The notes below the pieces were generated by a model. It searched no databases, was not told where the DNA came from, and saw nothing but the letters and a program-made list of their open reading frames with translations. Both the position numbers and the translations under genes were made by a program. A stretch of DNA of 64,000 nt from an uncultured Planctomycetia bacterium (GTDB taxonomy: Bacteria > Omnitrophota > Gorgyraeia > Gorgyraeales > Gorgyraeaceae), in the NCBI GenBank assembly GCA_964415355.1, contig CAYPYS010000006.1, positions 752 to 64,751 on the forward strand, written 5' to 3'. Of this stretch, positions 777 through 35,640 are shown piece after piece; the stretch's first letter is position 1, and each line of letters opens with the position of its first letter.

Positions 777-777
777 T

Positions 778-2208: not shown

Positions 2209-2227
2209 ATAGGTGGTATCAAGAATT

Positions 2228-3580
2228 ATGAGAGTAGCTATTATCAGACCTAGATATTATACGCATCTTGTCACGCCTCCTCTTGGTATGGGTTATGTCT
2301 GCGCTTATCTCAAACAAGCGGGTATAAAGGCAAGTATTATAGACGGCCTCAAAGAGGGGTTGGATAATGAGCAGCTTTTAAGGCGTTGCGAAGATGCGGA
2401 TATAGTAGCTATATTCTGCATGAGCGATTATATCTGGGATGTTATTGACATTAGTAAGAGATTAAAGGGTGCAGGGAAGACAGTCGTGATAGGTGGGCCT
2501 CATGCTACCATAATGCCTAAGGAGACTCTGGGACATACTGACGCAGACTATGCGATTGTTGGTGAAGGAGAAAAGAGCATGTTGGAGCTTGTGCATGCTA
2601 TAAGCAACAAGAAAGACCCTTCGACTATCCAAGGTATTTACTCGAAGGCAACGACAAGATTTTTACCCAGGGAGTTTTTTAATAACCTAGATGAAATACC
2701 TTTTCCTGCGTGGGAGGAGATTGACCCCAGGAGTTATCCGCCAGCTCCGCATGGTGCCGTAGTAAAAGCCTTCCCTGTTGCACCTATTACGTCTTCTCGC
2801 GGATGTCCTTTTTCATGTCATTTTTGCGCCAGCCCTAAGATATGGAAGCGTCAGATAAGGTATCGTTCTGCAAAGAATGTAGTGGATGAAATAGAATTAC
2901 TTGTAAAAAAATATCAGGTAAAAGAGATTCATTTTGAAGATGACAATCTTACCTTAAAGAGATCTCATGTTGAGGGCATATGTGAAGAGATTTTAAAGAG
3001 AAGGCTTAAGGTGTATTGGGCTACACCAAACGGTATACGCGTCGATGCGGTTTCAGAGGAACTTTTAAAGTTAATGAAGAGGAGCGGATGTTACAGTGTG
3101 GCCTTTGGCATAGAATCTGGTTCACAGAAAATACTAGACAATATAGATAAAAAGACAGACTTGAAGATGATGAATTCGGCCATACGAATGGCTCATAGAA
3201 CTGGTCTAATAACACAGGCCTTTATTATTTTTGGCCTTCCCGGAGAAACGCGAAAGACCATAGAAGACACAATAAAAATGGTTATGTCTTTGCCTCTGCA
3301 TAAGTCGCAATTTTTGCTCTTGGATCTCTTGCCCGGGTCTGTTCTATGGGATAGGTTTGGAAATGGCGATATAGAACTGTTCAAAAAAAGGAGTTATCAA
3401 GAGCCTGGATTTATACCTGAAGGCCTTACAGCGGATTATCTTATTAAGGCAAGGACCCAGGCATTCAGAAGGTTTCATTTAAGGCCAAGACAGTTTTGCA
3501 TGATCCTTAGAATGTTAAAGATGAAACAAATTGGGTATATTATGCAAAGGATGAAGGATTTTTATATATTCGGAAAATAA
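2228..3580 (+). CDS. B12-binding domain / radical SAM protein (paralog)
   Basis: VAIIRPRYY...PPLGMGYVCAYL B12-like N-terminus; CPFSCHFC Cx3Cx2C; C-terminal FHLRPRQ motif shared with neighbours. Confidence 0.7.
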   Translation: MRVAIIRPRYYTHLVTPPLGMGYVCAYLKQAGIKASIIDGLKEGLDNEQLLRRCEDADIVAIFCMSDYIWDVIDISKRLKGAGKTVVIGGPHATIMPKETLGHTDADYAIVGEGEKSMLELVHAISNKKDPSTIQGIYSKATTRFLPREFFNNLDEIPFPAWEEIDPRSYPPAPHGAVVKAFPVAPITSSRGCPFSCHFCASPKIWKRQIRYRSAKNVVDEIELLVKKYQVKEIHFEDDNLTLKRSHVEGICEEILKRRLKVYWATPNGIRVDAVSEELLKLMKRSGCYSVAFGIESGSQKILDNIDKKTDLKMMNSAIRMAHRTGLITQAFIIFGLPGETRKTIEDTIKMVMSLPLHKSQFLLLDLLPGSVLWDRFGNGDIELFKKRSYQEPGFIPEGLTADYLIKARTQAFRRFHLRPRQFCMILRMLKMKQIGYIMQRMKDFYIFGK

Positions 3581-3641: not shown

Positions 3642-4844
3642 ATGAAGATAGCTTTAGTTGTAGATTGGCATTCGGAAAAGATGGGGTATTCTGATAATTT
3701 TTTACCTAAGGCCTTGGCTTCTTTGGGGCATGAGGTTCATCTGATAAGCTCTAATGGCCAGGTGTATTTTACCTCGTCTATTTACAAGGATGTCTTTGAA
3801 CCTTTTTTAGGGCCTCCGATCGTGGATTGCGGTGTGGAGGAACGCGATGGCTATACATTGCATCGTTTACCGCATGCTACTTTTAGAGGAAAAATGCGGA
3901 TAAAGGGCCTTGCGAAGAAATTACGCACGCTGCGACCAGATATAGTGCAAGCTGGCGAATTTACCTGTCTAACAACTTATGAGGCAGCATTTTTAAAGAA
4001 GATGCTAGGATATAAGTTTTTTGTAGAATGTCACGTGCACGCATCTGTTTTTCCTCCAGCTAATGGAATAGCAAGCGCAAAAGAGCGTTTTTATTGGAAT
4101 ATGTACGCCGCCACTATTGGCAAGATGGTAAACCATATGTCTGAGAGATGTTATCCCATAAGCACTGATGCTGCCGACATATTAGCTAAATTTTTTGGAA
4201 TTCAAAAAAATAAGATTGCTATAAGATCTTTAGGGGTAGATACGGATTTATTTAAACCTGTTTCTGATGAGGTTTCTAGGCAGAGACGTAGCAAGATTAG
4301 GAAAGAGCTTGGTTTTTCGGATTCGGATATTGTATGCGTATATACCGGGCGTTTCGAGTCATGCAAGAATCCTTTGTGTCTTGCGCATGCAATAAAAAAG
4401 CTTGCGGCTATAGGGGAGCCTTTTCGGGGTTTATTTATAGGATGTGGTAGCGAGGTTAACAGAGATAAGATATCGGATTCTTCATGCTGTATTACGCATC
4501 CTTTTGTTCCAGTGAAAGAATTACCCAAATTTTATCAGGCTGGCGATATAGCTGTTTGGCCTAAGCAAGAATCAACTAGCCAACTTGACGCAGCAGCATG
4601 TGGCTTACCCCTAATACTTAGCGATAAAGTAAAAGTAAAAGAACGCATAGAGGGCAATGGACTGACTTACAGGGAGGACGACATTGAGGATATGATTCGC
4701 CAATTGCTTGTTCTTCGTGATCCTGTATTACGTCAGAAAATGGGTGCTTGCGGTGCTGATAAAATGCGTAGGTCGTTTAGCTGGCATAACATTGCCAAAG
4801 AATACGCGACTGATTACGAAGATGCCTTGAGGAAAACAGGATGA
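3642..4844 (+). CDS. glycosyltransferase, GT4/GT1-like
   Basis: GT-B C-terminal region (GDIAVWPKQESTSQLDAAACGLPLILSD); weak N-terminal similarity. Confidence 0.5.
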   Translation: MKIALVVDWHSEKMGYSDNFLPKALASLGHEVHLISSNGQVYFTSSIYKDVFEPFLGPPIVDCGVEERDGYTLHRLPHATFRGKMRIKGLAKKLRTLRPDIVQAGEFTCLTTYEAAFLKKMLGYKFFVECHVHASVFPPANGIASAKERFYWNMYAATIGKMVNHMSERCYPISTDAADILAKFFGIQKNKIAIRSLGVDTDLFKPVSDEVSRQRRSKIRKELGFSDSDIVCVYTGRFESCKNPLCLAHAIKKLAAIGEPFRGLFIGCGSEVNRDKISDSSCCITHPFVPVKELPKFYQAGDIAVWPKQESTSQLDAAACGLPLILSDKVKVKERIEGNGLTYREDDIEDMIRQLLVLRDPVLRQKMGACGADKMRRSFSWHNIAKEYATDYEDALRKTG

Positions 4845-5929
4845 AAAAGAAGATTGTTATAGCAGGAGGGGCACGGCCGAATTTTATAAAAATAGTCCCG
4901 CTTATAAGAGAATTTAAAAGATATAAGAAGCATTTTGATGTTTTATTCGTGCACACCGGACAACATTATGATTTTACTATGTCAGAAATATTTTTTCAGG
5001 ACCTATGTATTCCTAAACCTGATGTTTTTTTGAACGCGGGATCTTCGTCTCATGCTATTCAGACGGCCAAGATTATGATGGGCTTCGAGAGGGTTCTTAT
5101 AAAAGAGAAACCTGATCTAATAGTCGTTGTCGGAGACGTTAATTCTACATTGGCGTGTTCTTTGGTTGCGTCAAAATTAAACATCAAGATAGCTCATGTA
5201 GAATCAGGGTTGAGGAGTTTTGATAAAACAATGCCCGAGGAGATCAATCGCATAGTTACAGATAGTCTCTCGGACTATTTATTCGTAACTGAAAAAAGCG
5301 GGATGGAAAATTTAAAGAAAGAAGGAATCGATAAAAAAAAGATATTTTTTGTAGGCAATGTAATGATAGATACATTACTGTTGAACATGCGCAAGATAGA
5401 CAAATCCGATATCCTTAAACAGTTTTCTTTAAGGCCTGATTCTTATGGCGTTTTGACTCTTCATAGACCCAGTAATGTTGACACAGAGGATTCATTTCTT
5501 GAGATATACGCTATTTTAAAATCTCTTTTAGGCAAAATAAGGATAATTTATCCTGTCCATCCACGTTCCATGCGAATGATGAGATCGTACGGTATTTTAG
5601 GCAAGTTCAAAAAGCTAAATAACCTTTGCATGACGAAGCCACTTGGTTACGTCGATTTTATTAAGTTGATAAAAAAATCCAGTTTTGTCCTTACTGATTC
5701 AGGAGGGATACAAGAAGAGGCTGCTTTTATGAGGACTTCCTGTCTTACGTTAAGGGAAAATACAGAACGGCCCGCTACTTTAAAAGGCACAAATTATTTA
5801 GTAGGTAGAAATAAAGATAAGATACTCAGACACGTGAAAAATATATTGAACGGCAAAATAAAAGATGGCAAAATCCCCGAATTATGGGATGGCAAGGCAG
5901 CACGCAGAATAGCCAAGATTCTAATATGA
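4841..5929 (+). CDS. wecB: UDP-N-acetylglucosamine 2-epimerase (non-hydrolysing)
   Basis: ARPNFIKIVPL...HTGQHYD...KPDLIVVVGDVNSTLA...AHVESGLRSFD motifs typical of WecB/MnaA. Confidence 0.8.
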   Translation: MKKKIVIAGGARPNFIKIVPLIREFKRYKKHFDVLFVHTGQHYDFTMSEIFFQDLCIPKPDVFLNAGSSSHAIQTAKIMMGFERVLIKEKPDLIVVVGDVNSTLACSLVASKLNIKIAHVESGLRSFDKTMPEEINRIVTDSLSDYLFVTEKSGMENLKKEGIDKKKIFFVGNVMIDTLLLNMRKIDKSDILKQFSLRPDSYGVLTLHRPSNVDTEDSFLEIYAILKSLLGKIRIIYPVHPRSMRMMRSYGILGKFKKLNNLCMTKPLGYVDFIKLIKKSSFVLTDSGGIQEEAAFMRTSCLTLRENTERPATLKGTNYLVGRNKDKILRHVKNILNGKIKDGKIPELWDGKAARRIAKILI

Positions 5930-6954
5930 TAGACACAGAAAAGACATTTCTAGAGATGACTAGTTCTTATGAAAATAGCAGATCAAAGGATATGACTTCC
6001 AAATATTGGACAGAGCTAAACAGGAAAAATATAGATCAATTGCAAAGAGAAGGATATTGCAATTTTAAACAAACCGTAGGTAAAAATTATTTTATATGGG
6101 CGACAAGAATACGAGACCCTAAGATTAGATACTTGATGAATAATCTGCCGCTTTCATGCGTGTCGTCGGCTTTTGCTAAGGCGCTTTTTTCAAAAAGACA
6201 TATATATTTTAGTTTAAAAGGTACAATCGTCTATAATTTTCTCAGTCTTTTGCTATGGGAATACACGATAAGAAAAATATCTTTTAACATGGTAGATTCC
6301 ATCGAAGAACCGCTGGAGGGTAACCCTCCTTGTGTCAGAGTAGGTCGTAGGATGATTTCCCAGGACTTGGCTTATTCCGTATTGGAGCTTAATGAAATGA
6401 TAAAAGGAGGCGTAGATTTTAATAGCATAAATACGGTAATGGAGTTAGGCGCAGGGTATGGCAGGACAGCGTATGTTTTTCTTAAGGCATTCCCGCATTT
6501 GAAATATATAGTAGCGGATATTCCCCCAGCGCTTTACATTTCCCAGAGGTACTTATCAGGTCAATTCCCGCATAGAAAGATATTTGAATTCAAAAATTTT
6601 AAAGATTATTCAGAAATCGCGGATGAGTTTGAAGAATCGCAGATAGCTTTTGTGTTACCGTCACAGTTGGAATTGTTGCCAACTAAGACAGTAGACATGT
6701 TTTTGGCTATAGATTCACTTCATGAAATGCTGCCAAAACATATAGAGTATTATTTTAATAATATAGATAGACTTACAAAAAAGTTTTTCTATTTTAAATG
6801 CTGGAAGATAACAGAGATGCTCTACGATGATATCGTGCTTAAGGAAACAGACTATCCTGTACGCGAGAACTGGTACAGGGTGTTTTGGAACGAATGCGAT
6901 GTGCTTACTTCATATTTTGAAGCGCTTTTCAGGATTGATAATGGAGGGAATTAA
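5926..6954 (+). CDS. putative SAM-dependent (sugar) methyltransferase-like protein
   Basis: LELGAGYGRTAYVF GxGxG-like motif; ATG at 5926 overlaps wecB stop (ATGA). Confidence 0.35.
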   Translation: MIDTEKTFLEMTSSYENSRSKDMTSKYWTELNRKNIDQLQREGYCNFKQTVGKNYFIWATRIRDPKIRYLMNNLPLSCVSSAFAKALFSKRHIYFSLKGTIVYNFLSLLLWEYTIRKISFNMVDSIEEPLEGNPPCVRVGRRMISQDLAYSVLELNEMIKGGVDFNSINTVMELGAGYGRTAYVFLKAFPHLKYIVADIPPALYISQRYLSGQFPHRKIFEFKNFKDYSEIADEFEESQIAFVLPSQLELLPTKTVDMFLAIDSLHEMLPKHIEYYFNNIDRLTKKFFYFKCWKITEMLYDDIVLKETDYPVRENWYRVFWNECDVLTSYFEALFRIDNGGN

Positions 6955-8171
6955 TGAAAGAATGCTTGGTTTGTAGAACGCTTATAGAGCCTTTTATGTC
7001 TTTCGGAAAGATGCCTATTGCGAACGGATTCTTGAAGAAAGACCAGTTTGGCGAGGAATACTTTTTTGAACTAAAGGTTGCTTCTTGTCCTGAGTGCGGC
7101 ATGTTTCAGCTTATAGAGCAACCTGACCGCACTAAAATGTTTAACGAAAACTACGCCTTTTTTTCAGGGACATCAAAAAATATGGCTGTTCATTTCCAGG
7201 AGTTTGCAAAACATCTGAAGGGCGATTATCTCTCTTCTAAAGATCCTTTTGTGGTAGAGGTAGGCAGTAATGATGGTATTATGCTGAAGAATTTTGTTGA
7301 TTCAGGAATACGTCACTTAGGGATTGAGCCGTCTGCTAATGTGGCCAAAGCAGCAACGGATAAAGGTATAAATACGATATGTAAGTTTTTTGACGAAGAA
7401 TGTGCCAAGGAGATCGTAGCTAAGCATGGTCAGGCAGATGCCTTTCTTGGTGCAAATGTCATGTGCCATATCCCCTATCTCCATTCTGTGATCAAAGGAG
7501 CCAAGATACTTATTAAGCCAAAAGGCGTGATGATATTTGAAGATCCTTATCTGGGAGATGTCATTGAGAAAACGACGTATGACCAGATTTACGATGAGCA
7601 CGTTTTTTTGTTTTCCGTTTCCTCTATTAAGAATCTTTTTGCGCGACATGATATGGAGCTGATAGACATAGAGCCACAAGAGACACATGGAGGATCGATG
7701 CGCTATATAATAGCGAACAAAGGAAAAAGGCCTGTGTCTGCTAGAGTCAATAGACAGCTGGAAGAAGAAAAGGCTTTGGGCTTGGATAGGGCAGAGACAT
7801 ATGATATGTTTCGCAAAAATTGTGAACGCTATCGCAATGAGCTTATGGGTCTTCTGCGTGACATAAAGAAAAAAGGAAAAAGGATCGTAGGCTATGCGGC
7901 TACATCAAAAAGCACTACTATAATGAATTATTGTGGTATCACTGAGGACCATATAGAGTTTATAAGCGATACTACGCCTTTGAAGCAGGGTAAATTCAGC
8001 CCGGGTGTCCATATACCCGTGCGACCATATGAAGATTTTAAGGCAGATTACCCGGATTATGCGCTTCTGTTTGCTTATAATCACGCTAAAGAGATTATGG
8101 CAAAAGAAAAGGATTTTATGGTCTCAGGCGGGAAGTGGATTACATATGTGCCAAAGGTGCAGATATTATAG
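6954..8171 (+). CDS. NDP-hexose C-methyltransferase-like protein (zinc ribbon + class I MTase + C-terminal domain; TylC3-type architecture)
   Basis: N-terminal CxxC...CxxC (CLVCRT...CPECG), central MTase fold (VVEVGSNDGIML), C-terminal extension; architecture recalled from the Methyltransf_13/14 family. Confidence 0.5.
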   Translation: MKECLVCRTLIEPFMSFGKMPIANGFLKKDQFGEEYFFELKVASCPECGMFQLIEQPDRTKMFNENYAFFSGTSKNMAVHFQEFAKHLKGDYLSSKDPFVVEVGSNDGIMLKNFVDSGIRHLGIEPSANVAKAATDKGINTICKFFDEECAKEIVAKHGQADAFLGANVMCHIPYLHSVIKGAKILIKPKGVMIFEDPYLGDVIEKTTYDQIYDEHVFLFSVSSIKNLFARHDMELIDIEPQETHGGSMRYIIANKGKRPVSARVNRQLEEEKALGLDRAETYDMFRKNCERYRNELMGLLRDIKKKGKRIVGYAATSKSTTIMNYCGITEDHIEFISDTTPLKQGKFSPGVHIPVRPYEDFKADYPDYALLFAYNHAKEIMAKEKDFMVSGGKWITYVPKVQIL

Positions 8172-8185
8172 ATTAAATGACAGTG

Positions 8186-8226
8186 CTTAAGTTTACATTT
8201 CAACAACGTTGAAATGTAAACTTAAG
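8186..8226. repeat. 41-bp palindromic element, copy 2 (opposite orientation, AAC loop)
   Basis: cttaagtttacatttcaacaacgttgaaatgtaaacttaag. Confidence 0.95.
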
Positions 8227-8249
8227 CGAGTTGGGAGGGATTTTAGCTG

Positions 8250-8696
8250 ATGATAGAAGGTGTTGAGGTTAAGGAGTCAGTTGTACATAGAGATGGTAGG
8301 GGTTTTTTCTGCGAGATAATAAGGCGCTCGGATGATTTTTTTCAGGGCAGGTTCGGTCAGCTTAGCCATTCAATGGCGCATAAGGGAGTATTTAAGGCTT
8401 GGCATATGCATAAGAAACAGACTGACTGGATGTATGTTGCTACAGGAGATATTAAGCTAGCCTTATACGATACACGGAAAGATTCCAAGACAAAAGGAAG
8501 ATTGCAGGAGATGCTAATTGGAGAGACGCATGGTCACAAGGTCATAAAAATCCCACCAGGCGTAGCTCATGGTTACAAAATAATAAATGGACCGATGCAC
8601 ATCGTGTATGTGACAGATAGGGAATATGACCCTGGGGATGAATTAAGGATATCGCATGATGACCCGGAAATTGGGTATGATTGGGTGTCTGATTAG
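8250..8696 (+). CDS. cupin-fold NDP-sugar 3,5-epimerase / 3,4-ketoisomerase (RmlC/FdtA-like)
   Basis: 148 aa; WHMHKKQTDWMYVATG cupin motif resembling dTDP-4-dehydrorhamnose epimerase-like proteins. Confidence 0.55.
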   Translation: MIEGVEVKESVVHRDGRGFFCEIIRRSDDFFQGRFGQLSHSMAHKGVFKAWHMHKKQTDWMYVATGDIKLALYDTRKDSKTKGRLQEMLIGETHGHKVIKIPPGVAHGYKIINGPMHIVYVTDREYDPGDELRISHDDPEIGYDWVSD

Positions 8697-8700
8697 ATCT

Positions 8701-9696
8701 ATGGCTAAAAAAAGTAATAATTATTATAAAAATAAAAACATACTTATTACGGGCGGAAGTGGATATCTAGGGAGTTCTCTTGTAAACGCGTTAAGCCTTA
8801 TTCCGTGCAGGATTACTGTTTTAGACCTGAAACCTGATGCCGTGCGCTCGGTTAAAGATCAGGCTGCAGATATAACATTCAAAGAAGGCGATATCAAGTG
8901 TGAAAAAATATGGTTTAAATACCTGAAAGACATTGATATTATTTTTCACTTTGCAGCCCAGACAAGTTCGCGTATCGCCAATGAAAATCCTATAAGCGAT
9001 CTTAGGAGCAATCTTTTGCCTGTAGTGAACCTTGTCGAGACATGTCATAAAAATGGATTTAAGCCTGATATAATATTTGCTGGCACTGTTACAGAAGCAG
9101 GCCTTACTAATAAGTTGCCAGTTAATGAGAATTTTAAAGATAGACCTATAACGGTATATGATATAAATAAACTCGCTGCCGAGAAGTATCTCCAGTATTA
9201 TGCTAATCAAATAGGAGGGAAGTCTGTGACACTAAGGCTAGCAAATCTGTATGGCCCAGGCACTGCTTGTGCTAGCGTAGATAGAGGCATACTTAACTTG
9301 ATGGTCAGAAAAGCGCTTAAAGGAGAAGGGCTGACTGTTTATGGGGACGGTGCTTTTATAAGAGATTATACGTATATAGATGATGTGGTAGTGGCATTTC
9401 TATTGGCAGGAATAAATATAAATGTTTTATCCGGAAGATATTGTGTTCTCGGTACTGGCGTTGGGCATTCTATCAAGGATATGGCAAATATGATCAAAGA
9501 AGAGGTTTTTGATATGACGAGAAAGGAAACCGTAATCAATTACGTTTCTCCAGACAAAGACCTTGCACCTATCGAAACCAGAAATTTTATAGCTGACACT
9601 ACTTCTTTTAAGGAAGCAACGGGGTGGGTTTCGAAAATAGATCTAAGAAGCGGTATTAGGCAGACGATAGATTATTTTTTAAAGGAGAAGATATAG
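8701..9696 (+). CDS. NAD-dependent epimerase/dehydratase (extended SDR)
   Basis: ILITGGSGYLGSSL Rossmann motif; YDINK YxxxK; ATG at 8701 directly after upstream stop. Confidence 0.65.
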   Translation: MAKKSNNYYKNKNILITGGSGYLGSSLVNALSLIPCRITVLDLKPDAVRSVKDQAADITFKEGDIKCEKIWFKYLKDIDIIFHFAAQTSSRIANENPISDLRSNLLPVVNLVETCHKNGFKPDIIFAGTVTEAGLTNKLPVNENFKDRPITVYDINKLAAEKYLQYYANQIGGKSVTLRLANLYGPGTACASVDRGILNLMVRKALKGEGLTVYGDGAFIRDYTYIDDVVVAFLLAGININVLSGRYCVLGTGVGHSIKDMANMIKEEVFDMTRKETVINYVSPDKDLAPIETRNFIADTTSFKEATGWVSKIDLRSGIRQTIDYFLKEKI

Positions 9697-10664
9697 TGGA
9701 TATATTAATATTAGGAGGCGCTGGGTTTTTAGGGAGTAATTTGGTCAGGAGGTGCCTAAAGGAGCCCGGGAATAGAGTAACTGTCGTGGACTCTTTGGAT
9801 CCCAGGCTAAAAAGCACGTCTGATAATTTGAGAGAAGTTTTACAGCAGATAGAATTTATCAAAGGTGACATGAGGGATTCTGTATTAATGGGAAGGATTG
9901 TAAAAGGCAAAGATGCTATTTTTAATTGCGCAGGCCAAACCTCCCATCCATTATCGTTGACAGATCCATTTTTTGATGTCGAGGTGAATTGCGCGGGCAA
10001 TCTCACGCTTTTAGAAGCCGTAAGGAAATACAATAAAGAAGTGCCCGTGGTCTATACATCAAGCAGTACTGTTATAGGAAAGACACAGGGAGAGGTTGTG
10101 GATGAGACGCATGGCGAATTTCCGCTGGATATCTATTCAGCCAATAAAGGCGTAGCAGAGAAATATTACCGTATTTATAACCGCGTTTATGATTTAAATA
10201 CGCTGTCGCTTCGCTTTGCCAATCTCTACGGCCCCTATGGGAAAGGTTATCCCGAATTTGGGTTTATAAATTATTTTATTGCGTTGGCAATGGCAGACAA
10301 GGATATAGAGATTTTTGGGGAGGGCAGTCAGAATCGAAATGTCATGTACGTCGAAGACGCTGTGGAGCTCATTTATAGATCTATATCGCATAAGGAGATC
10401 TTCGGCAATGTCTATTTTGCAGTGCACAGGGAACATTATTCTGTTTTGGATATCGCAAGGGAGATCGTCTCTGTCTTTAAGAAAGGGAATATTAGAAAAA
10501 TAGCATGGCCTGATGTACGCAAGAGAATAGAGATAGATAATGTAATAATTTCTGCGGAAAAGCTTTGTTATGATATGAAATTTGAACCGAGATATAATCT
10601 CAAAGAAGGGCTTCTTAAGACAAGAGAGATTTTAGAAAAAAATGCACTAATTGAATCTTCTTAA
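9696..10664 (+). CDS. NAD-dependent epimerase/dehydratase (extended SDR)
   Basis: ILILGGAGFLGSNL; YSANK; GTG start preceded by aaaggag RBS. Confidence 0.65.
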   Translation: MDILILGGAGFLGSNLVRRCLKEPGNRVTVVDSLDPRLKSTSDNLREVLQQIEFIKGDMRDSVLMGRIVKGKDAIFNCAGQTSHPLSLTDPFFDVEVNCAGNLTLLEAVRKYNKEVPVVYTSSSTVIGKTQGEVVDETHGEFPLDIYSANKGVAEKYYRIYNRVYDLNTLSLRFANLYGPYGKGYPEFGFINYFIALAMADKDIEIFGEGSQNRNVMYVEDAVELIYRSISHKEIFGNVYFAVHREHYSVLDIAREIVSVFKKGNIRKIAWPDVRKRIEIDNVIISAEKLCYDMKFEPRYNLKEGLLKTREILEKNALIESS

Positions 10665-10700
10665 GTTTACATTTCAACGTTGTTGAAATGTAAACTTAAG
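10660..10700. repeat. 41-bp palindromic element, copy 3
   Basis: perfect copy; its CTTAAG supplies the TAA stop of the upstream gene. Confidence 0.95.
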
Positions 10701-10727
10701 TCAGAAGCGTAACCAGGGAGGCATTTT

Positions 10728-11681
10728 ATGAATATCTGCGTAACAGGTGCCCTGGGCCATATAGGCTCAGCGCTTATCCGCAATATATCTACGCCATTAA
10801 TCAAGAAGGTATATTTAGTTGATAACTTTTTAACTCAGAGATATGCTTCTTTGTTTAATTTGCCCTACGGGATAAATTATTCCTTTCATGAACTGGATAT
10901 CCTTTCAGAGGACATGGGACCTATTATAGAGGATTCTGATGTCCTAATACATCTTGCAGCTGTTACGAATGCAGAAAAGAGTTTCCATGATTCTGAGCTA
11001 GTTGAAAAGATAAATAAAAAAGGATTGGAAAATGTTGCCAGTCTATGTTCGCAGCATGACTGCGCCTTGGTTTTTCCTTCTTCTACGAGCGTTTATGGTG
11101 TGCAGGAAGGAGTGGTGGATGAGAATTGCAAAGAGAAAGATCTTATGCCTCAAAGCCCATATGCGGAGTCGAAGATTTACGGGGAAAAGCTGTTAGCGCG
11201 ATTGTCCAAAGAAAAAGGCCTGAGATTCGTGATTTTTCGTCTTGCTACGATTTTTGGATATTCTATTGGGATGAGATTTCACACGGCAGTGAATAAATTT
11301 ATATGGCAGGCATCTTTAGGACAGGATATAACAGTGTGGAAAACAGCATTAAACCAGAAGAGGCCGTATTGTGATTTGCAAGATGCTGTTTCAGCATTTA
11401 ATCAAGTGGTCGAAAAAAATATGTTCGACAGAGAAATTTATAATGTAGTTACTATGAATTTGACAGTTGCTGATATAGTAGCCTCTATAAGGCAATATAT
11501 CCCAGAGCTTAAATTTAAATTCGTAGAGTCAGCGATTATGAATCAACTTTCGTATAATGTATCGAATGAGAAATCGATCAAAGCAGGGTTTAAGTACTCA
11601 GGTGATTTGGATGTTAGCATAAAAGAATCGCTTAAACAAATAAAGAACATCAACGCATCCAATCCCAAGATAGATTTATGA
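10728..11681 (+). CDS. NAD-dependent epimerase/dehydratase (SDR family)
   Basis: ICVTGALGHIGSAL; YAESK. Confidence 0.6.
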   Translation: MNICVTGALGHIGSALIRNISTPLIKKVYLVDNFLTQRYASLFNLPYGINYSFHELDILSEDMGPIIEDSDVLIHLAAVTNAEKSFHDSELVEKINKKGLENVASLCSQHDCALVFPSSTSVYGVQEGVVDENCKEKDLMPQSPYAESKIYGEKLLARLSKEKGLRFVIFRLATIFGYSIGMRFHTAVNKFIWQASLGQDITVWKTALNQKRPYCDLQDAVSAFNQVVEKNMFDREIYNVVTMNLTVADIVASIRQYIPELKFKFVESAIMNQLSYNVSNEKSIKAGFKYSGDLDVSIKESLKQIKNINASNPKIDL

Positions 11682-13651
11682 ACAAGAGTCCAAAAGTAGG
11701 CATAGTTATACCCAGTTACGAACGCCTGGAATACCTTAAAGAGGCTGTAGATAGCGCTATAAACCAGACCTATGGAAATCTCGAGATAGTCATAATAGAC
11801 GACAATTCTCCAGATCCGGCTATAAAAGAATATCTGAGTAAGATAGGAGATTCAAACGTCAGGTATTTTATCAATAAGACAAACATTGGCACTACAAGAA
11901 ATTATGATACAGGCGTAAGGCTTTTAGCCCGAGACGTCGAATGGTGCGTGATACTTGATAACGATGATTTTTTGGACAAAGATTTTGTCAAGGAAGCTGT
12001 GGAGTTGCATTTGAAATATCCTAAATCAAAGGTAGTGCATTGCCATCAAGTGTTTATAGATGTTGATAAGAGAAAAATACGAGAGGATTCTGGCTTTGCT
12101 TCTCTTGAGAAGGCAGAGGATTATTTGTTTTCAAGATGCATGGGCCGTCGCGATATAAGATCATCCAGCATCTTTTTTAATACAGAAGAATACAAGAAGG
12201 TGGGGGGGTACCCTATATTTTCCTCAGGCATGTGTACTGATACGGTATTTCCTTTTTCTCTTGCATTCGATAACATGCTGGCTTTTTCCGAAAAGGCATT
12301 GGTATATATAAGAATCCATGATGAGGCAGAATCTCTTACAGCTGACAATATAAAAGGCAAACTCGTGTCTATAAAACAGATGCAGGAATATTGCATGGAT
12401 GTGTATAAGACCAATAATATGGATAATTCTTTTGGAAATAAGGTGAGAACAAAAGTATATTTAAGACGTTACGGCATGTCTTTGACTTATGCCTTGCTTA
12501 TAAGAATGTACAAAGAAACATTGCTTAAAAAGGATAAGAATTCTGCCAAGGCCTATATAAAGGATGTTGTAAATTTCTGCAGAGAGAACGGATTGACTGT
12601 GTCGTCAAGGTTTTTGCTCTTATTCGGTTCCTTCAATTGTTTTAATTTAGATTTAAGCAAGGCAGGTTTTGGCAAGTTTGTCCGTATGCTGGAGGCCGGC
12701 AGAGGTTTCCTGTCAAATAGATATGCTAATCTTAGAAAATATTTGAGCAGAATACAACTTCTATCATTCGTAAAGAGACAATCGATGGTTATTTTAAACA
12801 CTTTAAAAGGCAGATTCGCTTTAGTTGATTTTAAATATTGTCCCTCTTGCGGATGTTATAGTTTATTTTATTGGTGGCGTTATTATGAAGAGATACTTAG
12901 AGAAAGTGTTCCCGAATGGGGAGTCAGCATAGATTATACCGAACAGATGATAAAAAGAGAAAATAAGCTTTGCGCCAATTGTGGTACTGTTTTTAGAATA
13001 CGAGCTCATGCCCAAACAATACTGAAGATATTTGGTTGGAGCAGATTGTCGGGTTTTGTGTCTTTTTTAAGGAATAATCCTTCTTTTGTGGTATACGAAT
13101 CCGCGAATTACAATGTCTTTCGCAATAGAGCATTAAAGCAGCTGGATAATTATATGGTTTCCGAATTTCACCCAGAGTATAGATTCGGACAAGATGCAAA
13201 TGGTGTGAGGAATGAAAATCTCGAGAGATTGACCTTCGAAGATAAACTATTTGATTTAATAATAACCAGTGATGTGCTCGAGCATGTTTCTGATCTGGAT
13301 AAGGCATTGTCTGAAATACACAGGGTTCTTAAGCCAGGTGGTTATCATATCTTTACAGTACCCGTAGATTCTTCTTTGATCAGAACAAGACAAAGGGCAT
13401 TGGTAGGTACGGATGGAAAACTGAATCATCTTTTACCTCCCGTGATACACGGAGACGATATCAGGGACGGTATACTGGCTTATAGAGATTTTGGTACTGA
13501 TATAAATAAAATAATGGAAACATATGGATTTACATGTGAAGAAAATAGATATTTTATAAACAAAAAACATATTGTCTCTATTTACATAGCACAGAAGATC
13601 AGCGCAGGTGTATTTTTACAGGCAGCTTCAAAAAGACGCTCGGCCAGGTAA
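11678..13651 (+). CDS. bifunctional GT2 glycosyltransferase / class I SAM-dependent methyltransferase
   Basis: N-terminus VGIVIPSYERLEYLKEAVDSAINQTY...IIDDNS (GT2); C-terminus DLIITSDVLEHVSDLDKALSEIHRVLKPGG (Methyltransf_11-like). Confidence 0.6.
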   Translation: MNKSPKVGIVIPSYERLEYLKEAVDSAINQTYGNLEIVIIDDNSPDPAIKEYLSKIGDSNVRYFINKTNIGTTRNYDTGVRLLARDVEWCVILDNDDFLDKDFVKEAVELHLKYPKSKVVHCHQVFIDVDKRKIREDSGFASLEKAEDYLFSRCMGRRDIRSSSIFFNTEEYKKVGGYPIFSSGMCTDTVFPFSLAFDNMLAFSEKALVYIRIHDEAESLTADNIKGKLVSIKQMQEYCMDVYKTNNMDNSFGNKVRTKVYLRRYGMSLTYALLIRMYKETLLKKDKNSAKAYIKDVVNFCRENGLTVSSRFLLLFGSFNCFNLDLSKAGFGKFVRMLEAGRGFLSNRYANLRKYLSRIQLLSFVKRQSMVILNTLKGRFALVDFKYCPSCGCYSLFYWWRYYEEILRESVPEWGVSIDYTEQMIKRENKLCANCGTVFRIRAHAQTILKIFGWSRLSGFVSFLRNNPSFVVYESANYNVFRNRALKQLDNYMVSEFHPEYRFGQDANGVRNENLERLTFEDKLFDLIITSDVLEHVSDLDKALSEIHRVLKPGGYHIFTVPVDSSLIRTRQRALVGTDGKLNHLLPPVIHGDDIRDGILAYRDFGTDINKIMETYGFTCEENRYFINKKHIVSIYIAQKISAGVFLQAASKRRSAR

Positions 13652-20602: not shown

Positions 20603-20603
20603 T

Positions 20604-20644
20604 CTTAAGTTTACATTTTAACGTTGTTGAAATGTAAACTTAAA
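20604..20644. repeat. 41-bp palindromic element, copy 7
   Basis: cttaagtttacattttaacgttgttgaaatgtaaacttaa. Confidence 0.9.
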
Positions 20645-20653
20645 AGGGGAGTT

Positions 20654-33556: not shown

Positions 33557-34771
33557 ATGATAAAGAGTTTATTTATTTCTTATAACGGTGCATTGGAACC
33601 ATTAATGCAATCCCAGGCCATTCCTTATTTAAAGGGGCTTTCCGAGAAAGGGGTGGGATCTTTCCTGTTGACTTTTGAAAAGACAAAAGACAAAGAAAGA
33701 ATTCGGAATCTAAAAAGAGAGTTAGAGAGTTATAATATAGAATGGCACGCCTTTAGATATCACAAGAGACCTTCAGTGCCTGCTACTTTATTGGATATAT
33801 TTATAGGTATTGTGGCGGGGTTATGCCTAGTTATTTCTAAAAAGATAGATATCATACACGCGCGCGCCACTGTCCCGGCAGCCATGGCTTATGTGATAGC
33901 GAAGATCACTCGCAAGAAGTTCATTTTTGACGTGAGAGGGCTTATGGCAGAAGAATATGCGGACGGAGGCATATGGAGGCGAGAAAGCTTACGTCATAAG
34001 TGCACGCTATATTTTCAGAAGTTATTTTTGAAAAGCGCTGATGAACTCGTTGTTATTACCGAGAATATAAAAAATTTTTTATACGAGAGCGATTATCTCG
34101 ACAAAAAGAACAAAAAGATCAGCGTTGTATCATGCTGCGTAGATACAGGAAGATTCAGGAAGGCCTCTTCGCGTAATGAGGCCTTGAGGCAGAAATTTGG
34201 ACTTATGGGAAAATTCGTGTTTTTGTATATAGGGTCTGTCGGTACATGGTATATGTTAAGAGAGATGATGGATTTTTTTATTGCTACAAAAAGCGTTATA
34301 TCGAATTCCCATTTTTTAATATTGACTCATGTCGACAAAGACATGGCCAAGAGAGTGCGTGACGAAAAAGGTCTTTCTTCAAAAGACATTACCATTGACG
34401 AGGCAGGATTCAACGATATGCCTGAATATATAAACTTGGCAGATGTTGGCATCTTTTTTATAAAGCCTGTTTTTTCCAAAAGGTCGTCATGTCCCACTAA
34501 GTTTGCGGAATATTTATCATGCGGTTTGCCTCTTGTGATAAATTCCAAGATAGGGGATACTGACAATATAGTAAAAGAACGCAAACTAGGCGTTGTCATA
34601 GATGATTTTGATAAGGATTCTTATTTGTCGGGTTTACGAGAATTATCGGTTCTTATGAAAGAGAAAGAGTTATTGACTAAAAGGTCTCGAATGACAGCAG
34701 AAGAGTTATTTTCTTTAGAAAAGGGCGTTTCTGTGTATTTTGATATTTACAGGAGGTTAGGATGCAATTAA
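33557..34771 (+). CDS. glycosyltransferase, GT4-like
   Basis: GT-B-like; weak motif support. Confidence 0.45.
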   Translation: MIKSLFISYNGALEPLMQSQAIPYLKGLSEKGVGSFLLTFEKTKDKERIRNLKRELESYNIEWHAFRYHKRPSVPATLLDIFIGIVAGLCLVISKKIDIIHARATVPAAMAYVIAKITRKKFIFDVRGLMAEEYADGGIWRRESLRHKCTLYFQKLFLKSADELVVITENIKNFLYESDYLDKKNKKISVVSCCVDTGRFRKASSRNEALRQKFGLMGKFVFLYIGSVGTWYMLREMMDFFIATKSVISNSHFLILTHVDKDMAKRVRDEKGLSSKDITIDEAGFNDMPEYINLADVGIFFIKPVFSKRSSCPTKFAEYLSCGLPLVINSKIGDTDNIVKERKLGVVIDDFDKDSYLSGLRELSVLMKEKELLTKRSRMTAEELFSLEKGVSVYFDIYRRLGCN

Positions 34772-35640
34772 AGGCTTTGATTACTGGTGCAAATGGGATG
34801 TTGGCGGATGCGCTTATACCGCTTTTGAAGAAAAAAAGCTACATAATATATCCAACGGATATTGTCGGTAATGAGAATGTTATAAAAATGGATATAAGAA
34901 ACTCGGAGCAATTAATGGAGTTTGGCGCAAGGAATAAGCCGAATGTTATATTTCATCTCGCCGCTGAGACAGATGTAGACAAGTGTGAATTAAACGAGAA
35001 ACATGCGTATGAGACAAATGCCAAGGGCACAGAGAATGTAGCACTTGTTTGCAAGGCACTTGATATCCCGATGGTTTATATAAGTACAGGGGCTGTATTT
35101 GATGGTAAAAAAGAGGGAGGTTATACAGAGGAGGACGAACCTGGGAGCCCGGTGAATGTATATGGTAGAAGCAAATTAAAAGGAGAAGAGATAGTACGGT
35201 CACTATTGACTAAATATTATATTATAAGGGCTAGTTGGATGATAGGGGGATTTAATAAAGATAAGAAATTTGTCTGGAAGATAGTTCATCTTTTAAAGAG
35301 CAAAAAGGAAATAGAGGTCGTCATTGATAAAGCAGGTAGCCCTACTTTTACAAGCGACCTTGCAAAAGGCATGATTGATATTGTGTCTACCGGTAAGTAT
35401 GGCGTATATCATTGTGTCAATAAAGGTATATGCACGAGATTCGATATTGCCAAAAAAATAGCCGAGTATTTAGATAAAAAAGAGGTCATTCTGAAGCCAG
35501 TTACCTCAGAAAGATTTCCGTTGCCTGCGCCAAGGCCAAAGTCAGAAGCATTGATCAATCATAAGCTTTGCTTAATGGGAATAGACAATGCGAGGCCATG
35601 GGGAGATGCTTTAAGGGAGTATATAGAAGAGATAAAATAA
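34762..35640 (+). CDS. dTDP-4-dehydrorhamnose reductase-like (RmlD family)
   Basis: ITGANGMLA; STGAVFDG...YGRSKLKGE pattern characteristic of RmlD. Confidence 0.65.
   Translation: MQLKALITGANGMLADALIPLLKKKSYIIYPTDIVGNENVIKMDIRNSEQLMEFGARNKPNVIFHLAAETDVDKCELNEKHAYETNAKGTENVALVCKALDIPMVYISTGAVFDGKKEGGYTEEDEPGSPVNVYGRSKLKGEEIVRSLLTKYYIIRASWMIGGFNKDKKFVWKIVHLLKSKKEIEVVIDKAGSPTFTSDLAKGMIDIVSTGKYGVYHCVNKGICTRFDIAKKIAEYLDKKEVILKPVTSERFPLPAPRPKSEALINHKLCLMGIDNARPWGDALREYIEEIK

What the first reader, a model, noticed from the sequence alone, without database searches (positions are those of the whole stretch)
4841..11681. Candidate branched/C-methyl amino-sugar module
The module is wecB (UDP-GlcNAc 2-epimerase), a putative methyltransferase, a TylC3-architecture C-methyltransferase-like protein (zinc ribbon + MTase + C-terminal domain), an RmlC/FdtA-like cupin and three consecutive SDR epimerase/dehydratases. 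It is delimited by hairpin elements at 3588, 8186 and 10660. Together with RmlD at 34762, this is the toolkit for a modified deoxy, branched or ManNAc-derived sugar. No sugar nucleotidyltransferase is present.
Basis: partly seen in the sequence, partly recalled or inferred. Interest (0 to 1): 0.6.

Follow-up and report, generated by a model that had tools for sequence, protein, structure and literature searches.

The report
C-methyl branched-sugar gene cassette
The genes are real and form a widely shared, biochemically uncharacterised cassette that most likely adds a methyl branch to carbon 3 of an activated sugar for a cell-surface glycan. It carries no aminotransferase, so it is not an amino-sugar pathway in its own right.

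Summary
The refutation test failed: the 6954-8171 protein has PF08421, a class I methyltransferase domain and PF08484. It scores 427 bits against the solved sugar 3-C-methyltransferase 5t64 (KijD1, from memory).

The functional unit differs from the one proposed. The conserved block is C-methyltransferase, short RmlC-like cupin and three NAD-type SDRs (6954-11681). In close relatives a GT2-methyltransferase fusion follows it (11678-13651 here). This block recurs across many bacterial phyla and one archaeon.

About 73% of related loci carry a DegT aminotransferase between the methyltransferase and the cupin. Here it is missing, and no DegT homologue exists anywhere in the window. WecB is a local addition; a NanM-type O-methyltransferase recurs in a few related loci.

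None of the three SDRs has the acid/base pair of a 4,6-dehydratase. No nucleotidyltransferase is encoded. Where one lies beside the cassette elsewhere, it is RmlA, once followed directly by RmlB.

Best reading (confidence 0.5): dTDP-4-keto-6-deoxyglucose made elsewhere is methylated at C3, epimerised, reduced, O-methylated and transferred.

The "delimiting" hairpins are a 41-bp palindromic repeat scattered through the window, inserted relative to close relatives. The source is probably a Candidatus Omnitrophota bacterium. Moderate interest.

The parts
3642..4844 (+). GT4-family glycosyltransferase. Its stop overlaps the wecB start by 4 nt. Local partner of WecB and a possible ManNAc transferase; not part of the conserved cassette.
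   Evidence: PF13692, PF13439 and PF00534; coordinates.
4841..5929 (+). Non-hydrolysing UDP-GlcNAc 2-epimerase (WecB). A lineage-specific addition to the cassette.
   Evidence: TIGR00236 324.4 bits against a cut-off of 210. Best solved relative 4neq, 313 bits. No WecB within 10 kb of the cassette in the 80 related genome loci, and none called in L081-L085.
5926..6954 (+). NanM-type sugar O-methyltransferase. The ORF is listed from 5884; the likely start is the ATG at 5926, which overlaps the wecB stop. Its own stop overlaps the C-methyltransferase start by 1 nt.
   Evidence: TIGR04371 125.5 bits against a cut-off of 44; translation; junction sequence. Homologues sit in or beside the cassette in L046, L025, L080 and L028.
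6954..8171 (+). NDP-4-ketosugar C-3 methyltransferase of the TcaB9/KijD1/TylC3 architecture: 4-Cys zinc domain, class I SAM methyltransferase domain and C-terminal domain.
   Evidence: PF08421 57.7, PF13489 53.3 and PF08484 187.6 bits. 5t64 427 bits, 3ndi 405 bits, 4rv9 263 bits. Four Cys and the YDEH motif are aligned.
8186..8226 (.). 41-bp perfect palindrome, one copy of a dispersed repeat, with its loop in the opposite orientation to the copies at 3588 and 10660. It lies between the C-methyltransferase and the cupin. It is an insertion relative to close relatives and is not part of the pathway.
   Evidence: RNA hairpin -30.5 kcal/mol, z -7.1.
8250..8696 (+). Short (148 aa) RmlC-family cupin, the predicted epimerase of the 4-keto intermediate. 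Once C3 carries the methyl group, only C5 remains exchangeable.
   Evidence: PF00908 86.1 bits. TIGR01221 68 bits, below its cut-off of 155.75. Best solved relatives are RmlC enzymes at about 59 bits. H52, H54, H107, Y120, Y126 and E131 are at least 98% conserved across 45 sequences.
8701..9696 (+). SDR1, an extended NAD-type SDR nearest to GalE-type 4-epimerases. An optional member of the cassette. The ORF is listed from 8656; the start is probably the ATG at 8701.
   Evidence: PF01370 154.6 bits. 4zrm 136 bits. Motifs GTVTEAG and YDINK. Absent in roughly a quarter to a third of related cassettes.
9696..10664 (+). SDR2, an extended NAD-type SDR. It resembles the dTDP-glucose dehydratase family overall but lacks the Asp-Glu pair. 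Its nearest solved relatives tie between CDP-tyvelose 2-epimerase and an archaeal protein deposited as a hypothetical dTDP-glucose 4,6-dehydratase. Predicted epimerase or oxidoreductase.
   Evidence: TIGR01181 147 bits, below its cut-off of 365. 1orr 107.4 and 2hun 106.8 bits. Motifs SSSTVIG and YSANK; family consensus GTSTQIG.
10660..10700 (.). 41-bp palindrome copy. Its CTTAAG end supplies the TAA stop codon of SDR2. An insertion relative to close relatives.
10728..11681 (+). SDR3, an extended NAD-type SDR and the most constant SDR of the cassette. Predicted C4 oxidoreductase (4-ketoreductase in the favoured model).
   Evidence: PF01370 127.5 and PF04321 59.7 bits. The best solved relative by a clear margin is 6vo6, 90.7 bits over the full length. 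STSVYG and YAESK are conserved.
11678..13651 (+). GT2 glycosyltransferase fused to a class I methyltransferase. Candidate transferase, and further methylase, for the cassette's sugar.
   Evidence: PF00535 79.9 and PF08241 54.1 bits. 59% identical fusion directly after SDR3 in L083 and L084. A plain GT2 follows SDR3 in L085; a GT2 gene family (cluster 5) lies at a median of about 6.2 kb from the C-methyltransferase start in 20 of 80 loci.
34762..35640 (+). Orphan RmlD (dTDP-4-dehydrorhamnose reductase). It shows that the cluster uses dTDP-sugars whose RmlA and RmlB are encoded outside the window. A direct link to the cassette is not shown.
   Evidence: TIGR01214 242.4 bits against a cut-off of 224. 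No RmlA, RmlB or RmlC in the window.

Best explanation
Genes 6954-13651 form a sugar-nucleotide tailoring cassette that makes a 3-C-methyl branched hexose for the large surface-glycan cluster filling the first 47 kb of the window.

**Proposed route**
1. A 4-keto sugar nucleotide is supplied by RmlA and RmlB encoded outside the window. It is most likely dTDP-4-keto-6-deoxy-D-glucose.
2. The C-methyltransferase (6954-8171) transfers a methyl group from SAM to C3 through the enolate next to the 4-keto group.
3. The short RmlC-like cupin (8250-8696) epimerises the carbon still exchangeable next to the keto group, C5.
4. SDR3 (10728-11681) reduces the 4-keto group.
5. SDR2 and the optional SDR1 adjust stereochemistry as epimerases that oxidise the sugar transiently.
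6. The NanM-type O-methyltransferase (5926-6954) O-methylates the sugar.
7. The GT2-methyltransferase fusion (11678-13651) adds it to the glycan.

WecB and the GT4 that overlaps it supply and transfer ManNAc as a separate step.

**Shown versus inferred**
- Shown here: domain identities, conserved catalytic motifs, conserved gene order, and the absence of an aminotransferase, a nucleotidyltransferase and a canonical dehydratase.
- Inferred: the nucleotide carrier, the order of steps, which SDR performs which step, and the stereochemistry of the product.
For: **C-methyltransferase**
- All three diagnostic domains are present.
- 427, 405 and 263 bits to the solved sugar 3-C-methyltransferases 5t64, 3ndi and 4rv9, over the full length. 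The four zinc Cys and the YDEH motif are aligned.

**Conserved gene order**
- The order methyltransferase, (aminotransferase), cupin, SDR1, SDR2, SDR3 recurs in the 80 loci kept from 556 relatives, spanning many bacterial phyla and one archaeon.
- The same aminotransferase-less five-gene order, followed by the same GT2-methyltransferase fusion, occurs in relatives at 80-82% identity.

**Cupin and SDRs**
- The cupin keeps the RmlC-type His and Tyr.
- All three SDRs keep Ser/Thr, Tyr-x3-Lys and an Asp at the end of beta-strand 2.

**dTDP carrier**
- The only clear nucleotidyltransferases near the cassette are RmlA: L005 473 bits against a cut-off of 320, and L042 476 bits against 361.
- In L005 the RmlA is followed directly by a true RmlB (451 bits against a cut-off of 365) abutting the C-methyltransferase.
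- The window's own RmlD, without RmlA, RmlB or RmlC, shows the cluster already depends on dTDP-sugar genes elsewhere.

**O-methyltransferase**
- It recurs inside or beside the cassette in other phyla. Here its stop overlaps the C-methyltransferase start by 1 nt.
Against: - No RmlA or RmlB is in the window, and only 2 of 80 related loci have an RmlA nearby. The carrier therefore rests on thin evidence.
- One ketoreductase would be enough, yet three NAD-type SDRs are kept. Their roles are assigned only from distant solved relatives (91-136 bits).
- The C-methyltransferase is closer to enzymes that methylate 3-amino sugars, by their known substrates (TcaB9, KijD1), than to the D-mycarose 3-C-methyltransferase 4rv9. 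Most related cassettes carry a 3-aminotransferase. Activity on a 3-hydroxy substrate is therefore assumed.
- The cupin lacks the equivalent of RmlC Lys73 and ends before the Asp of the His-Asp dyad.
- Nothing was tested biochemically.
Confidence: 0.5

Rival explanations
1. The cassette is self-sufficient. One of its SDRs is dehydratase-like or resembles 6vo6 (Cj1427, from memory) but has no dehydration residues. It oxidises C4 of a housekeeping sugar nucleotide such as UDP-Glc, UDP-GlcNAc or GDP-Man without removing the 6-hydroxyl. The C-methyltransferase and cupin act on that free 4-keto intermediate, and another SDR reduces it. The product is a 3-C-methyl hexose that is not 6-deoxy.
For: - 75 of 80 related loci have no nucleotidyltransferase motif within 10 kb, and 75 of 80 have no canonical dehydratase motif. 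SDR2 and SDR3 are nonetheless retained in nearly all.
- SDR3's best solved relative, by a clear margin, is 6vo6. From memory this is Cj1427; its molecule name matches the Cj1427c annotation.
- Cj1427 is a C4-dehydrogenase that feeds a cupin epimerase and a C4-reductase without dehydration (PMC10680097).
- SDR2 matches the dehydratase family overall (147 bits) but has Ser-Thr in place of Asp-Glu.
Against: - SDR3 is only distantly related to 6vo6 (90.7 bits). That level of similarity cannot separate an oxidase from a reductase.
- In L005 the cassette keeps SDR2 and SDR3 even though RmlA and RmlB sit directly upstream.
- From established knowledge, all characterised enzymes of this methyltransferase family use 4-keto-6-deoxy sugars made by canonical dehydratases.
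Confidence: 0.22
2. WecB belongs to the same pathway, and the cassette acts on UDP-GlcNAc or UDP-ManNAc. The product would be a C-methylated, O-methylated 2-acetamido sugar.
For: - GT4, wecB, the O-methyltransferase and the C-methyltransferase overlap by 4, 4 and 1 nt, which suggests translational coupling.
- UDP-GlcNAc needs no dedicated nucleotidyltransferase.
- WecB-family enzymes also act late in 2-acetamido-6-deoxy sugar pathways. CapG matches at 192 bits and the WbpI type at 268 bits.
Against: - WecB is absent from all 80 related genome loci and is not among the genes called in L081-L085.
- Its best match is a plain UDP-GlcNAc 2-epimerase (4neq, 313 bits).
- No UDP-GlcNAc-type 4,6-dehydratase is present; PF02719 hits are weak.
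Confidence: 0.12
3. The genes sit together in a large glycan cluster but do not act on one sugar. The SDRs and the cupin would serve other sugars, such as a rhamnose-like pathway with RmlD.
For: - The cluster holds more than 15 glycosyltransferases and more than 8 methyltransferases, so many sugars are handled.
- The SDRs are generic by profile score.
Against: The five genes stay together, in the same order, across dozens of unrelated genomes whose flanking genes differ completely.
Confidence: 0.06

Closest known systems
TcaB9 (3ndi) and KijD1 (5t64), dTDP-sugar C-3 methyltransferases of the D-tetronitrose and D-kijanose pathways
   Same: Same three-domain architecture with 405-427 bits over the full length. 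Four zinc Cys and the YDEH active-site motif are conserved.
   Different: From established knowledge, those enzymes methylate a dTDP-3-amino-2,3,6-trideoxy-4-keto sugar in actinomycete antibiotic clusters that include a 2,3-dehydratase and a 3-aminotransferase. Here neither of those two enzymes is present, and the context is a cell-surface glycan cluster of an uncultivated Gram-negative lineage.
EvaB-EvaE pathway for L-epivancosamine (aminotransferase, C-methyltransferase, 5-epimerase cupin, 4-ketoreductase)
   Same: The wider cassette family (methyltransferase, 3-aminotransferase-like DegT enzyme, RmlC-like cupin, SDR) mirrors EvaC, EvaB, EvaD and EvaE. JGI annotates homologues as "methylation protein EvaC".
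   Different: There is no EvaA-type 2,3-dehydratase. There are three extended SDRs instead of one reductase. The window's version has lost the aminotransferase.
3-C-methyl-6-deoxyhexose pathways: L-nogalose and L-mycarose (antibiotics), virenose (Coxiella LPS), vinelose (Azotobacter CDP-sugar)
   Same: Predicted chemistry is the same: C3 methylation of an NDP-4-keto-6-deoxyhexose with a 3-hydroxyl, then epimerisation, 4-reduction and O-methylation. The virenose pathway as proposed is described in PMC3539893.
   Different: The mycarose enzyme 4rv9 is the more distant relative at 263 bits. The virenose proposal uses Gmd and GMER on GDP-sugars. Vinelose is CDP-linked (own knowledge). The product and carrier here are unknown.
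Campylobacter jejuni heptose modification (Cj1427 C4-dehydrogenase, Cj1430 cupin epimerase, Cj1428 C4-reductase)
   Same: The logic is a cupin plus several SDRs acting on a 4-keto intermediate. SDR3's nearest solved relative is 6vo6, which from memory is Cj1427.
   Different: Those are GDP-heptose substrates with no C-methylation, and the similarity is only 90.7 bits.

Membership tests
TylC3/TcaB9-type NDP-hexose C-3 methyltransferase | N-terminal four-Cys zinc-binding domain (PF08421) | tested here: met
   57.7 bits against a cut-off of 31.3. Cys4, Cys7, Cys45 and Cys48 align with the Cys pairs of 5t64.
TylC3/TcaB9-type NDP-hexose C-3 methyltransferase | Central class I SAM methyltransferase domain and C-terminal PF08484 domain | tested here: met
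   PF13489 53.3 bits and PF08484 187.6 bits against a cut-off of 23.5.
TylC3/TcaB9-type NDP-hexose C-3 methyltransferase | Full-length similarity to solved members, with the Tyr-Asp-Glu-His active-site motif | tested here: met
   427, 405 and 263 bits. YDEH aligns with YDEH of 5t64. The catalytic role of the His is from my own knowledge of TcaB9.
TylC3/TcaB9-type NDP-hexose C-3 methyltransferase | SAM-dependent methylation at C3 of an NDP-4-ketosugar | not testable with these tools
   Needs an enzyme assay.
RmlC (dTDP-4-dehydrorhamnose 3,5-epimerase) | PF00908 fold family | tested here: met
   86.1 bits against a cut-off of 27.
RmlC (dTDP-4-dehydrorhamnose 3,5-epimerase) | Equivalog-level score (TIGR01221) | tested here: not met
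   68.3 bits against a cut-off of 155.75.
RmlC (dTDP-4-dehydrorhamnose 3,5-epimerase) | Catalytic His base and Tyr acid | tested here: met
   H52 aligns with the RGLH His, and Y120 with the conserved Tyr of 7pvi. H52 is 98% and Y120 100% conserved across 45 sequences.
RmlC (dTDP-4-dehydrorhamnose 3,5-epimerase) | Lys that stabilises the enolate, and the C-terminal Asp of the His-Asp dyad | tested here: not met
   The Lys position is Asp59. The 148-aa protein ends at the equivalent of about residue 158 of 183-aa RmlC enzymes. Residue roles are from my own knowledge.
FdtA/QdtA 3,4-ketoisomerase | PF05523 profile match | tested here: not met
   No PF05523 hit at E <= 0.001. A conserved His-x-His (H52, H54) is reminiscent of the family but not diagnostic.
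NDP-hexose 4,6-dehydratase (RmlB, Gmd, CDP-Glc type) | Equivalog score and the acid/base pair after the catalytic Thr (TDE, TSE or SDK) | tested here: not met
   TIGR01181 gives 94.8, 147.2 and 69.9 bits for SDR1, SDR2 and SDR3 against a cut-off of 365. The motifs are GTVTEAG, SSSTVIG and STSVYG, in the window and across the families. No such motif occurs anywhere in the window.
Non-hydrolysing UDP-GlcNAc 2-epimerase (WecB) | Equivalog score TIGR00236 | tested here: met
   324.4 bits against a cut-off of 210.15; 4neq 313 bits.
Transaminated amino-sugar pathway | DegT/DnrJ/EryC1 sugar aminotransferase | tested here: not met
   No Pfam PF01041 hit in any ORF of the window. tblastn with the cassette's usual aminotransferase finds nothing in 64 kb.
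RmlD (dTDP-4-dehydrorhamnose reductase), gene 34762-35640 | Equivalog score TIGR01214 | tested here: met
   242.4 bits against a cut-off of 224.05. A functional link to the cassette was not tested.
NanM-type sugar O-methyltransferase | TIGR04371 subfamily score | tested here: met
   125.5 bits against a cut-off of 44.

The most novel reading that the evidence does not exclude
The five-gene core would be a self-contained, horizontally mobile pathway found in many bacterial phyla and at least one archaeon. It would make a so far undescribed 3-C-methyl hexose directly from a housekeeping sugar nucleotide. Instead of a 4,6-dehydratase, it would use a dehydratase-like SDR that has lost its dehydration residues and acts as a C4 oxidase. 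C-methyl branched sugars would then be a common, overlooked component of environmental microbial surfaces. In most lineages they would be 3-amino-3-C-methyl sugars.
Probability: 0.2. Interest if true: 0.6.

Novelty: new variant of a known kind. Interest (0 to 1): 0.38.

Why it matters
C-methyl branched sugars are known mainly from actinomycete antibiotics and a few lipopolysaccharides, such as Coxiella virenose. This cassette puts a close relative of the antibiotic-pathway C-3 methyltransferases into surface-glycan clusters. The genome scan found 556 relatives among representative genomes of 185,579 species.

Its gene set has apparently not been characterised. It includes three SDRs without dehydratase residues and a truncated RmlC-like cupin. 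Working out its product would name a widespread unknown sugar. It would also assign functions to three large SDR subfamilies that are currently annotated only as "NAD-dependent epimerase/dehydratase".

For this window alone the finding is a sensible annotation rather than a surprise.

Tried and rejected
1. **Hairpins as terminators or module boundaries: rejected.** They are copies of one 41-bp palindrome at ten or more sites. They have no T-tract on the coding strand and are absent from the same junctions in close relatives.
2. **One of the SDRs as the 4,6-dehydratase: rejected.** Motif and equivalog scores rule it out.
3. **Cupin as an FdtA-type 3,4-ketoisomerase: no profile support**. The idea remains tempting for the aminotransferase-containing cassettes.
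4. **GDP-mannose as precursor through a neighbouring Gmd: not supported.** Gmd occurs in 8 loci, but at variable distance, side and strand.
5. **Extending the window upstream to look for rmlA and rmlB: failed.** An exact search of the JGI metagenome contigs with the first 50 bases gave no match. The palindrome also gave none.
6. **Looking for cultured, annotated carriers of the cassette: unhelpful.** In the plasmid collection, only relatives below 47% identity were found, in other contexts.
7. **Literature search: nothing on this cassette.** Searches for the Pfam identifiers, 3-C-methyl O-antigens, TcaB9/KijD1 and Omnitrophota glycosylation turned up nothing relevant.
8. **The structural paper on Cj1427 (PMC7509852) is not held**. 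Equating 6vo6 with Cj1427 therefore rests on memory and on the matching molecule name.
9. **An early guess of an anammox origin: dropped.** It was based on G+C content and heavy methylation. The GroEL hits pointed to Omnitrophota instead.

Full report
**1. What is in the sequence**

The region lies in a run of same-strand genes that fills the window. Positions 1 to about 47,700 form a very large glycan cluster. It holds more than 15 glycosyltransferases, more than 8 SAM methyltransferases and three B12-binding radical SAM enzymes. It also holds an MBOAT/AlgX-like pair, an asparagine-synthase-like amidotransferase, three PMT_2/ArnT-like transferases and a WecA-family initiating enzyme. A cobalamin salvage and transport block follows, with a cobalamin riboswitch at 48350-48524. 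GroEL and a MoxR/DUF58 pair come after that.

The best named GroEL relatives are Candidatus Omnitrophota, at 84-89% identity. The genome scan found no C-methyltransferase relative above 75% identity. The source species is therefore probably not in that collection.

**2. Checking the observation**

| Gene | Coordinates | Key evidence |
|---|---|---|
| WecB | 4841-5929 | TIGR00236 324 bits (cut-off 210) |
| O-methyltransferase, NanM type | 5884-6954 | TIGR04371 125.5 bits (cut-off 44) |
| C-methyltransferase | 6954-8171 | PF08421 57.7, PF13489 53.3, PF08484 187.6 bits |
| Cupin | 8250-8696 | PF00908 86 bits |
| Three extended SDRs | 8656-11681 | PF01370 127-155 bits |
| RmlD | 34762-35640 | TIGR01214 242 bits (cut-off 224) |

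- The C-methyltransferase aligns end to end with solved sugar 3-C-methyltransferases. It scores 427 bits to 5t64 (KijD1, from memory), 405 bits to TcaB9 (3ndi) and 263 bits to the D-mycarose 3-C-methyltransferase 4rv9 (MtmC, from memory).
- The four zinc cysteines and the Tyr-Asp-Glu-His motif are conserved in that alignment.
- No nucleotidyltransferase exists in the window by profile or by motif in six frames.
- Likely true starts are the ATG at 5926 for the O-methyltransferase and the ATG at 8701 for SDR1.
- GT4, wecB, the O-methyltransferase and the C-methyltransferase overlap by 4, 4 and 1 nt.

**3. The hairpins**

The elements at 3588, 8186 and 10660 are perfect 41-bp palindromes: CTTAAGTTTACATTTCAAC, a 3-nt loop, then the reverse complement.

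- They are not boundaries of this module. Two of the three lie inside it.
- The same element occurs at seven more full sites and several half-sites. There are 26 half-site matches against 0.05 expected.
- Both loop orientations occur: GTT at 3588 and 10660, AAC at 8186.
- In close relatives the junction between the C-methyltransferase and the cupin is 27 nt, against 78 nt here. The SDR2-SDR3 junction there is an overlap or up to 14 nt, against 63 nt here. The element is absent from those loci. The copies in the window are therefore insertions into an operon.
- As RNA they would fold strongly, at -23 to -30 kcal/mol with z scores of -5.8 to -7.1. They have no T-tract on the coding strand.

**4. 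The real unit**

A scan of representative genomes with the C-methyltransferase found 556 relatives. The 80 loci kept come from many bacterial phyla and from Candidatus Methanoperedens. Local tblastn and clustering of their ORFs show one recurring order: C-methyltransferase, DegT aminotransferase, 150-aa cupin, SDR1, SDR2, SDR3.

Of 65 loci with at least 6 kb downstream, the compositions are as follows:

| Composition | Loci |
|---|---|
| All six genes | 25 |
| All but SDR1 | 10 |
| All but the aminotransferase | 9 |

- The window belongs to the last class. In this count the class includes the window itself and its close relatives L081 and L083-L085.
- Loci without the aminotransferase are scattered over the C-methyltransferase tree.
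- The window's nearest relatives (80-82% identity; L081, L083, L084, L085) have the same five genes without the aminotransferase. In L083 and L084 these are followed by a GT2-methyltransferase fusion 59% identical to 11678-13651. In L085 a plain GT2 follows.
- Genes upstream of the cassette differ completely in those relatives.
- WecB was never found within 10 kb in the 80 genome loci, and none is called in L081-L085.
- A NanM-type O-methyltransferase recurs inside or beside the cassette in L046, L025, L080 and L028, and more weakly in five other loci.
- The unit is therefore 6954-13651. The O-methyltransferase is a recurrent accessory, and WecB with its GT4 is a local neighbour.

**5. What the missing aminotransferase implies**

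The aminotransferase of the wider family is closest to solved sugar aminotransferases. The scores are 2oga 365, QdtB (3frk) 343, 5u1z 307 and WbpE 280 bits. Perosamine synthetase scores 238 and ArnB 216.

From memory, 2oga is DesV and 5u1z is KijD2, and all four of the first group act at C3. With a TcaB9/KijD1-like methyltransferase, the full cassette looks like a route to a 3-amino-3-C-methyl sugar. That parallels EvaB-EvaE but without a 2,3-dehydratase.

The window has no DegT homologue anywhere. Its product should therefore carry a hydroxyl at the branched carbon. "Amino-sugar" holds only if WecB's substrate is counted.

**6. The SDRs and the cupin**

None of the three SDRs reaches any equivalog cut-off.

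| SDR | Motif after the beta-strand | Family consensus |
|---|---|---|
| SDR1 | GTVTEAG | variable |
| SDR2 | SSSTVIG | GTSTQIG |
| SDR3 | STSVYG | STTSVYG |

- In none of them does an acid/base pair sit where 4,6-dehydratases have TDE, TSE or SDK.
- All three keep Tyr-x3-Lys and an Asp at the end of beta-strand 2. From established knowledge of extended SDRs, that points to NAD(H).
- Nearest solved relatives are as follows. SDR1 is closest to GalE-type 4-epimerases (4zrm, 136 bits).
- SDR2 ties between CDP-tyvelose 2-epimerase (1orr, 107.4 bits) and an archaeal protein deposited as a hypothetical dTDP-glucose 4,6-dehydratase (2hun, 106.8 bits).
- SDR3 is closest to 6vo6 (90.7 bits, next best 54.8).
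- From memory, 6vo6 is Cj1427, the C4-dehydrogenase of the Campylobacter heptose pathway. That pathway's logic is described in PMC10680097.
- The cupin belongs to the RmlC family and keeps the His and Tyr. It has Asp at the Lys73 position and ends before the C-terminal Asp. It also fails the RmlC equivalog cut-off. It has no FdtA profile match.

**7. Where the keto-sugar comes from**

Only 5 of 80 loci have a nucleotidyltransferase-like motif, and only 5 have a canonical dehydratase motif, within 10 kb. Profile scoring of these shows the following:

- L005 (Methanoperedens) has RmlA (473 bits, cut-off 320) followed by a true RmlB (451 bits, cut-off 365). Both sit directly upstream of the C-methyltransferase.
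- L042 has RmlA (476 bits, cut-off 361).
- One other is HddC- or ManC-like, and one is an acetyltransferase and so a false positive.

The window's own RmlD, without RmlA, RmlB or RmlC, shows this cluster already relies on dTDP-sugar genes elsewhere. I therefore favour dTDP-4-keto-6-deoxy-D-glucose as the substrate (confidence 0.5).

The main rival (0.22) is that a dehydratase-like SDR lacking dehydration residues, or a 6vo6-like SDR, oxidises a pool sugar nucleotide within the cassette. That would explain why SDR2 and SDR3 travel with the methyltransferase while RmlA and RmlB do not.

**8. Proposed mechanism**

1. *Inferred:* RmlA and RmlB, encoded elsewhere, give dTDP-4-keto-6-deoxyglucose.
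2. *Strongly supported by homology:* the C-methyltransferase methylates C3.
3. *Inferred:* the cupin epimerises C5. C3 can no longer exchange once it is quaternary.
4. *Inferred:* SDR3 reduces C4.
5. *Weakly inferred:* SDR2 and SDR1 act as 2- and 4-epimerases that oxidise the sugar transiently.
6. *Inferred from recurrent association:* the NanM-type enzyme O-methylates the sugar.
7. *Inferred from conserved adjacency:* the GT2-methyltransferase fusion transfers it.

The product class would be a 6-deoxy-3-C-methyl-O-methyl hexose, as in nogalose, vinelose or virenose. The stereochemistry is unknown.

**9. Comparison with known systems, and verdict**

The C-methyltransferase passes every sequence-level test for membership of its family. 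The cupin is RmlC-like but is not an RmlC equivalog. The SDRs are not dehydratases. The module is not a transaminated amino-sugar pathway.

Searches of the held literature found no paper on this cassette. It is best described as a new variant of a known kind of pathway. The genes are real and the cassette is coherent and widespread but uncharacterised. Within this window the finding amounts to a sound annotation with corrected boundaries and a corrected reading of the hairpins. Interest 0.38.

Noticed in passing
window 3588, 8186, 10660, 14707, 17657, 18637, 20604, 26310, 36742, 40254 (full copies); 47668, 48285, 51403, 56914, 59872, 62152 (half-sites): A 41-bp perfect palindrome family (19-bp arms, 3-nt loop, both orientations) sits in intergenic gaps of one long operon-like gene run. 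It is absent from the same junctions in relatives at 80-82% identity, so the copies are insertions. An exact-match search of the JGI metagenome contigs found none. At 10660, 14707, 18637, 40254 and 56914 its (C/T)TAA(G/C) end supplies the TAA stop codon of the upstream gene. It looks like a REP- or MITE-like mobile element.
   Followed up: partly
window 751-2208, 2213-3580, 27095-28585; also 42-776; 47729-56918; 48350-48524: Three B12-binding radical SAM enzymes and a further radical SAM fragment lie inside the glycan cluster. Directly beside the cluster is a cobalamin salvage and uptake block (BtuR, BtuF/C/D-like, CobC/U/T/S, TonB-dependent receptor) with a cobalamin riboswitch scoring 88.7 bits. 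This suggests cobalamin-dependent radical methylation of the glycan in addition to the SAM-dependent C-methylation.
   Followed up: no
window 44856-46637: An unusual 593-aa fusion. The N-terminus is a WecA/MraY-family phosphotransferase (PF00953). The C-terminus resembles the N-terminal, non-catalytic half of WbaP/WcaJ-type enzymes (CoA_binding_3; TIGR03023 positions 2-229 of 453), with no Bac_transf catalytic domain reported.
   Followed up: no
L005 12784-17239 and L064 12789-15448 (related loci): A larger variant of the cassette carries a second DegT aminotransferase, a PglD-like hexapeptide acetyltransferase and a conserved 270-aa protein with no Pfam match (cluster 6, found in 17 loci). 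This points to diamino or N-acetylated C-methyl sugars in other lineages.
   Followed up: partly
window 11678-13651: The GT2-methyltransferase fusion has a Cys-rich linker (CPSCGC ... CANCG) conserved at 59% overall identity in relatives. It may be a zinc ribbon joining the two catalytic domains.
   Followed up: no
window 34762-35640: RmlD reaches its equivalog cut-off but has no RmlA, RmlB or RmlC in 64 kb. The gene called next (35568-36716) overlaps its end by about 70 nt.
   Followed up: no
window 8250-8696: The cupin also scores above the gathering cut-off for PF14667 (Polysacc_synt_C; 32.3 bits against 28.7). That domain is normally found at the C-terminus of membrane flippases. The same hit is recorded for its orthologues in L081-L085. 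It looks like a profile cross-match and was not explained.
   Followed up: no
window 18692-23929: An asparagine-synthase-like amidotransferase (636 aa), an MBOAT and an AlgX-like SGNH protein lie in the same cluster. They suggest amidation and O-acetylation of the glycan.
   Followed up: no
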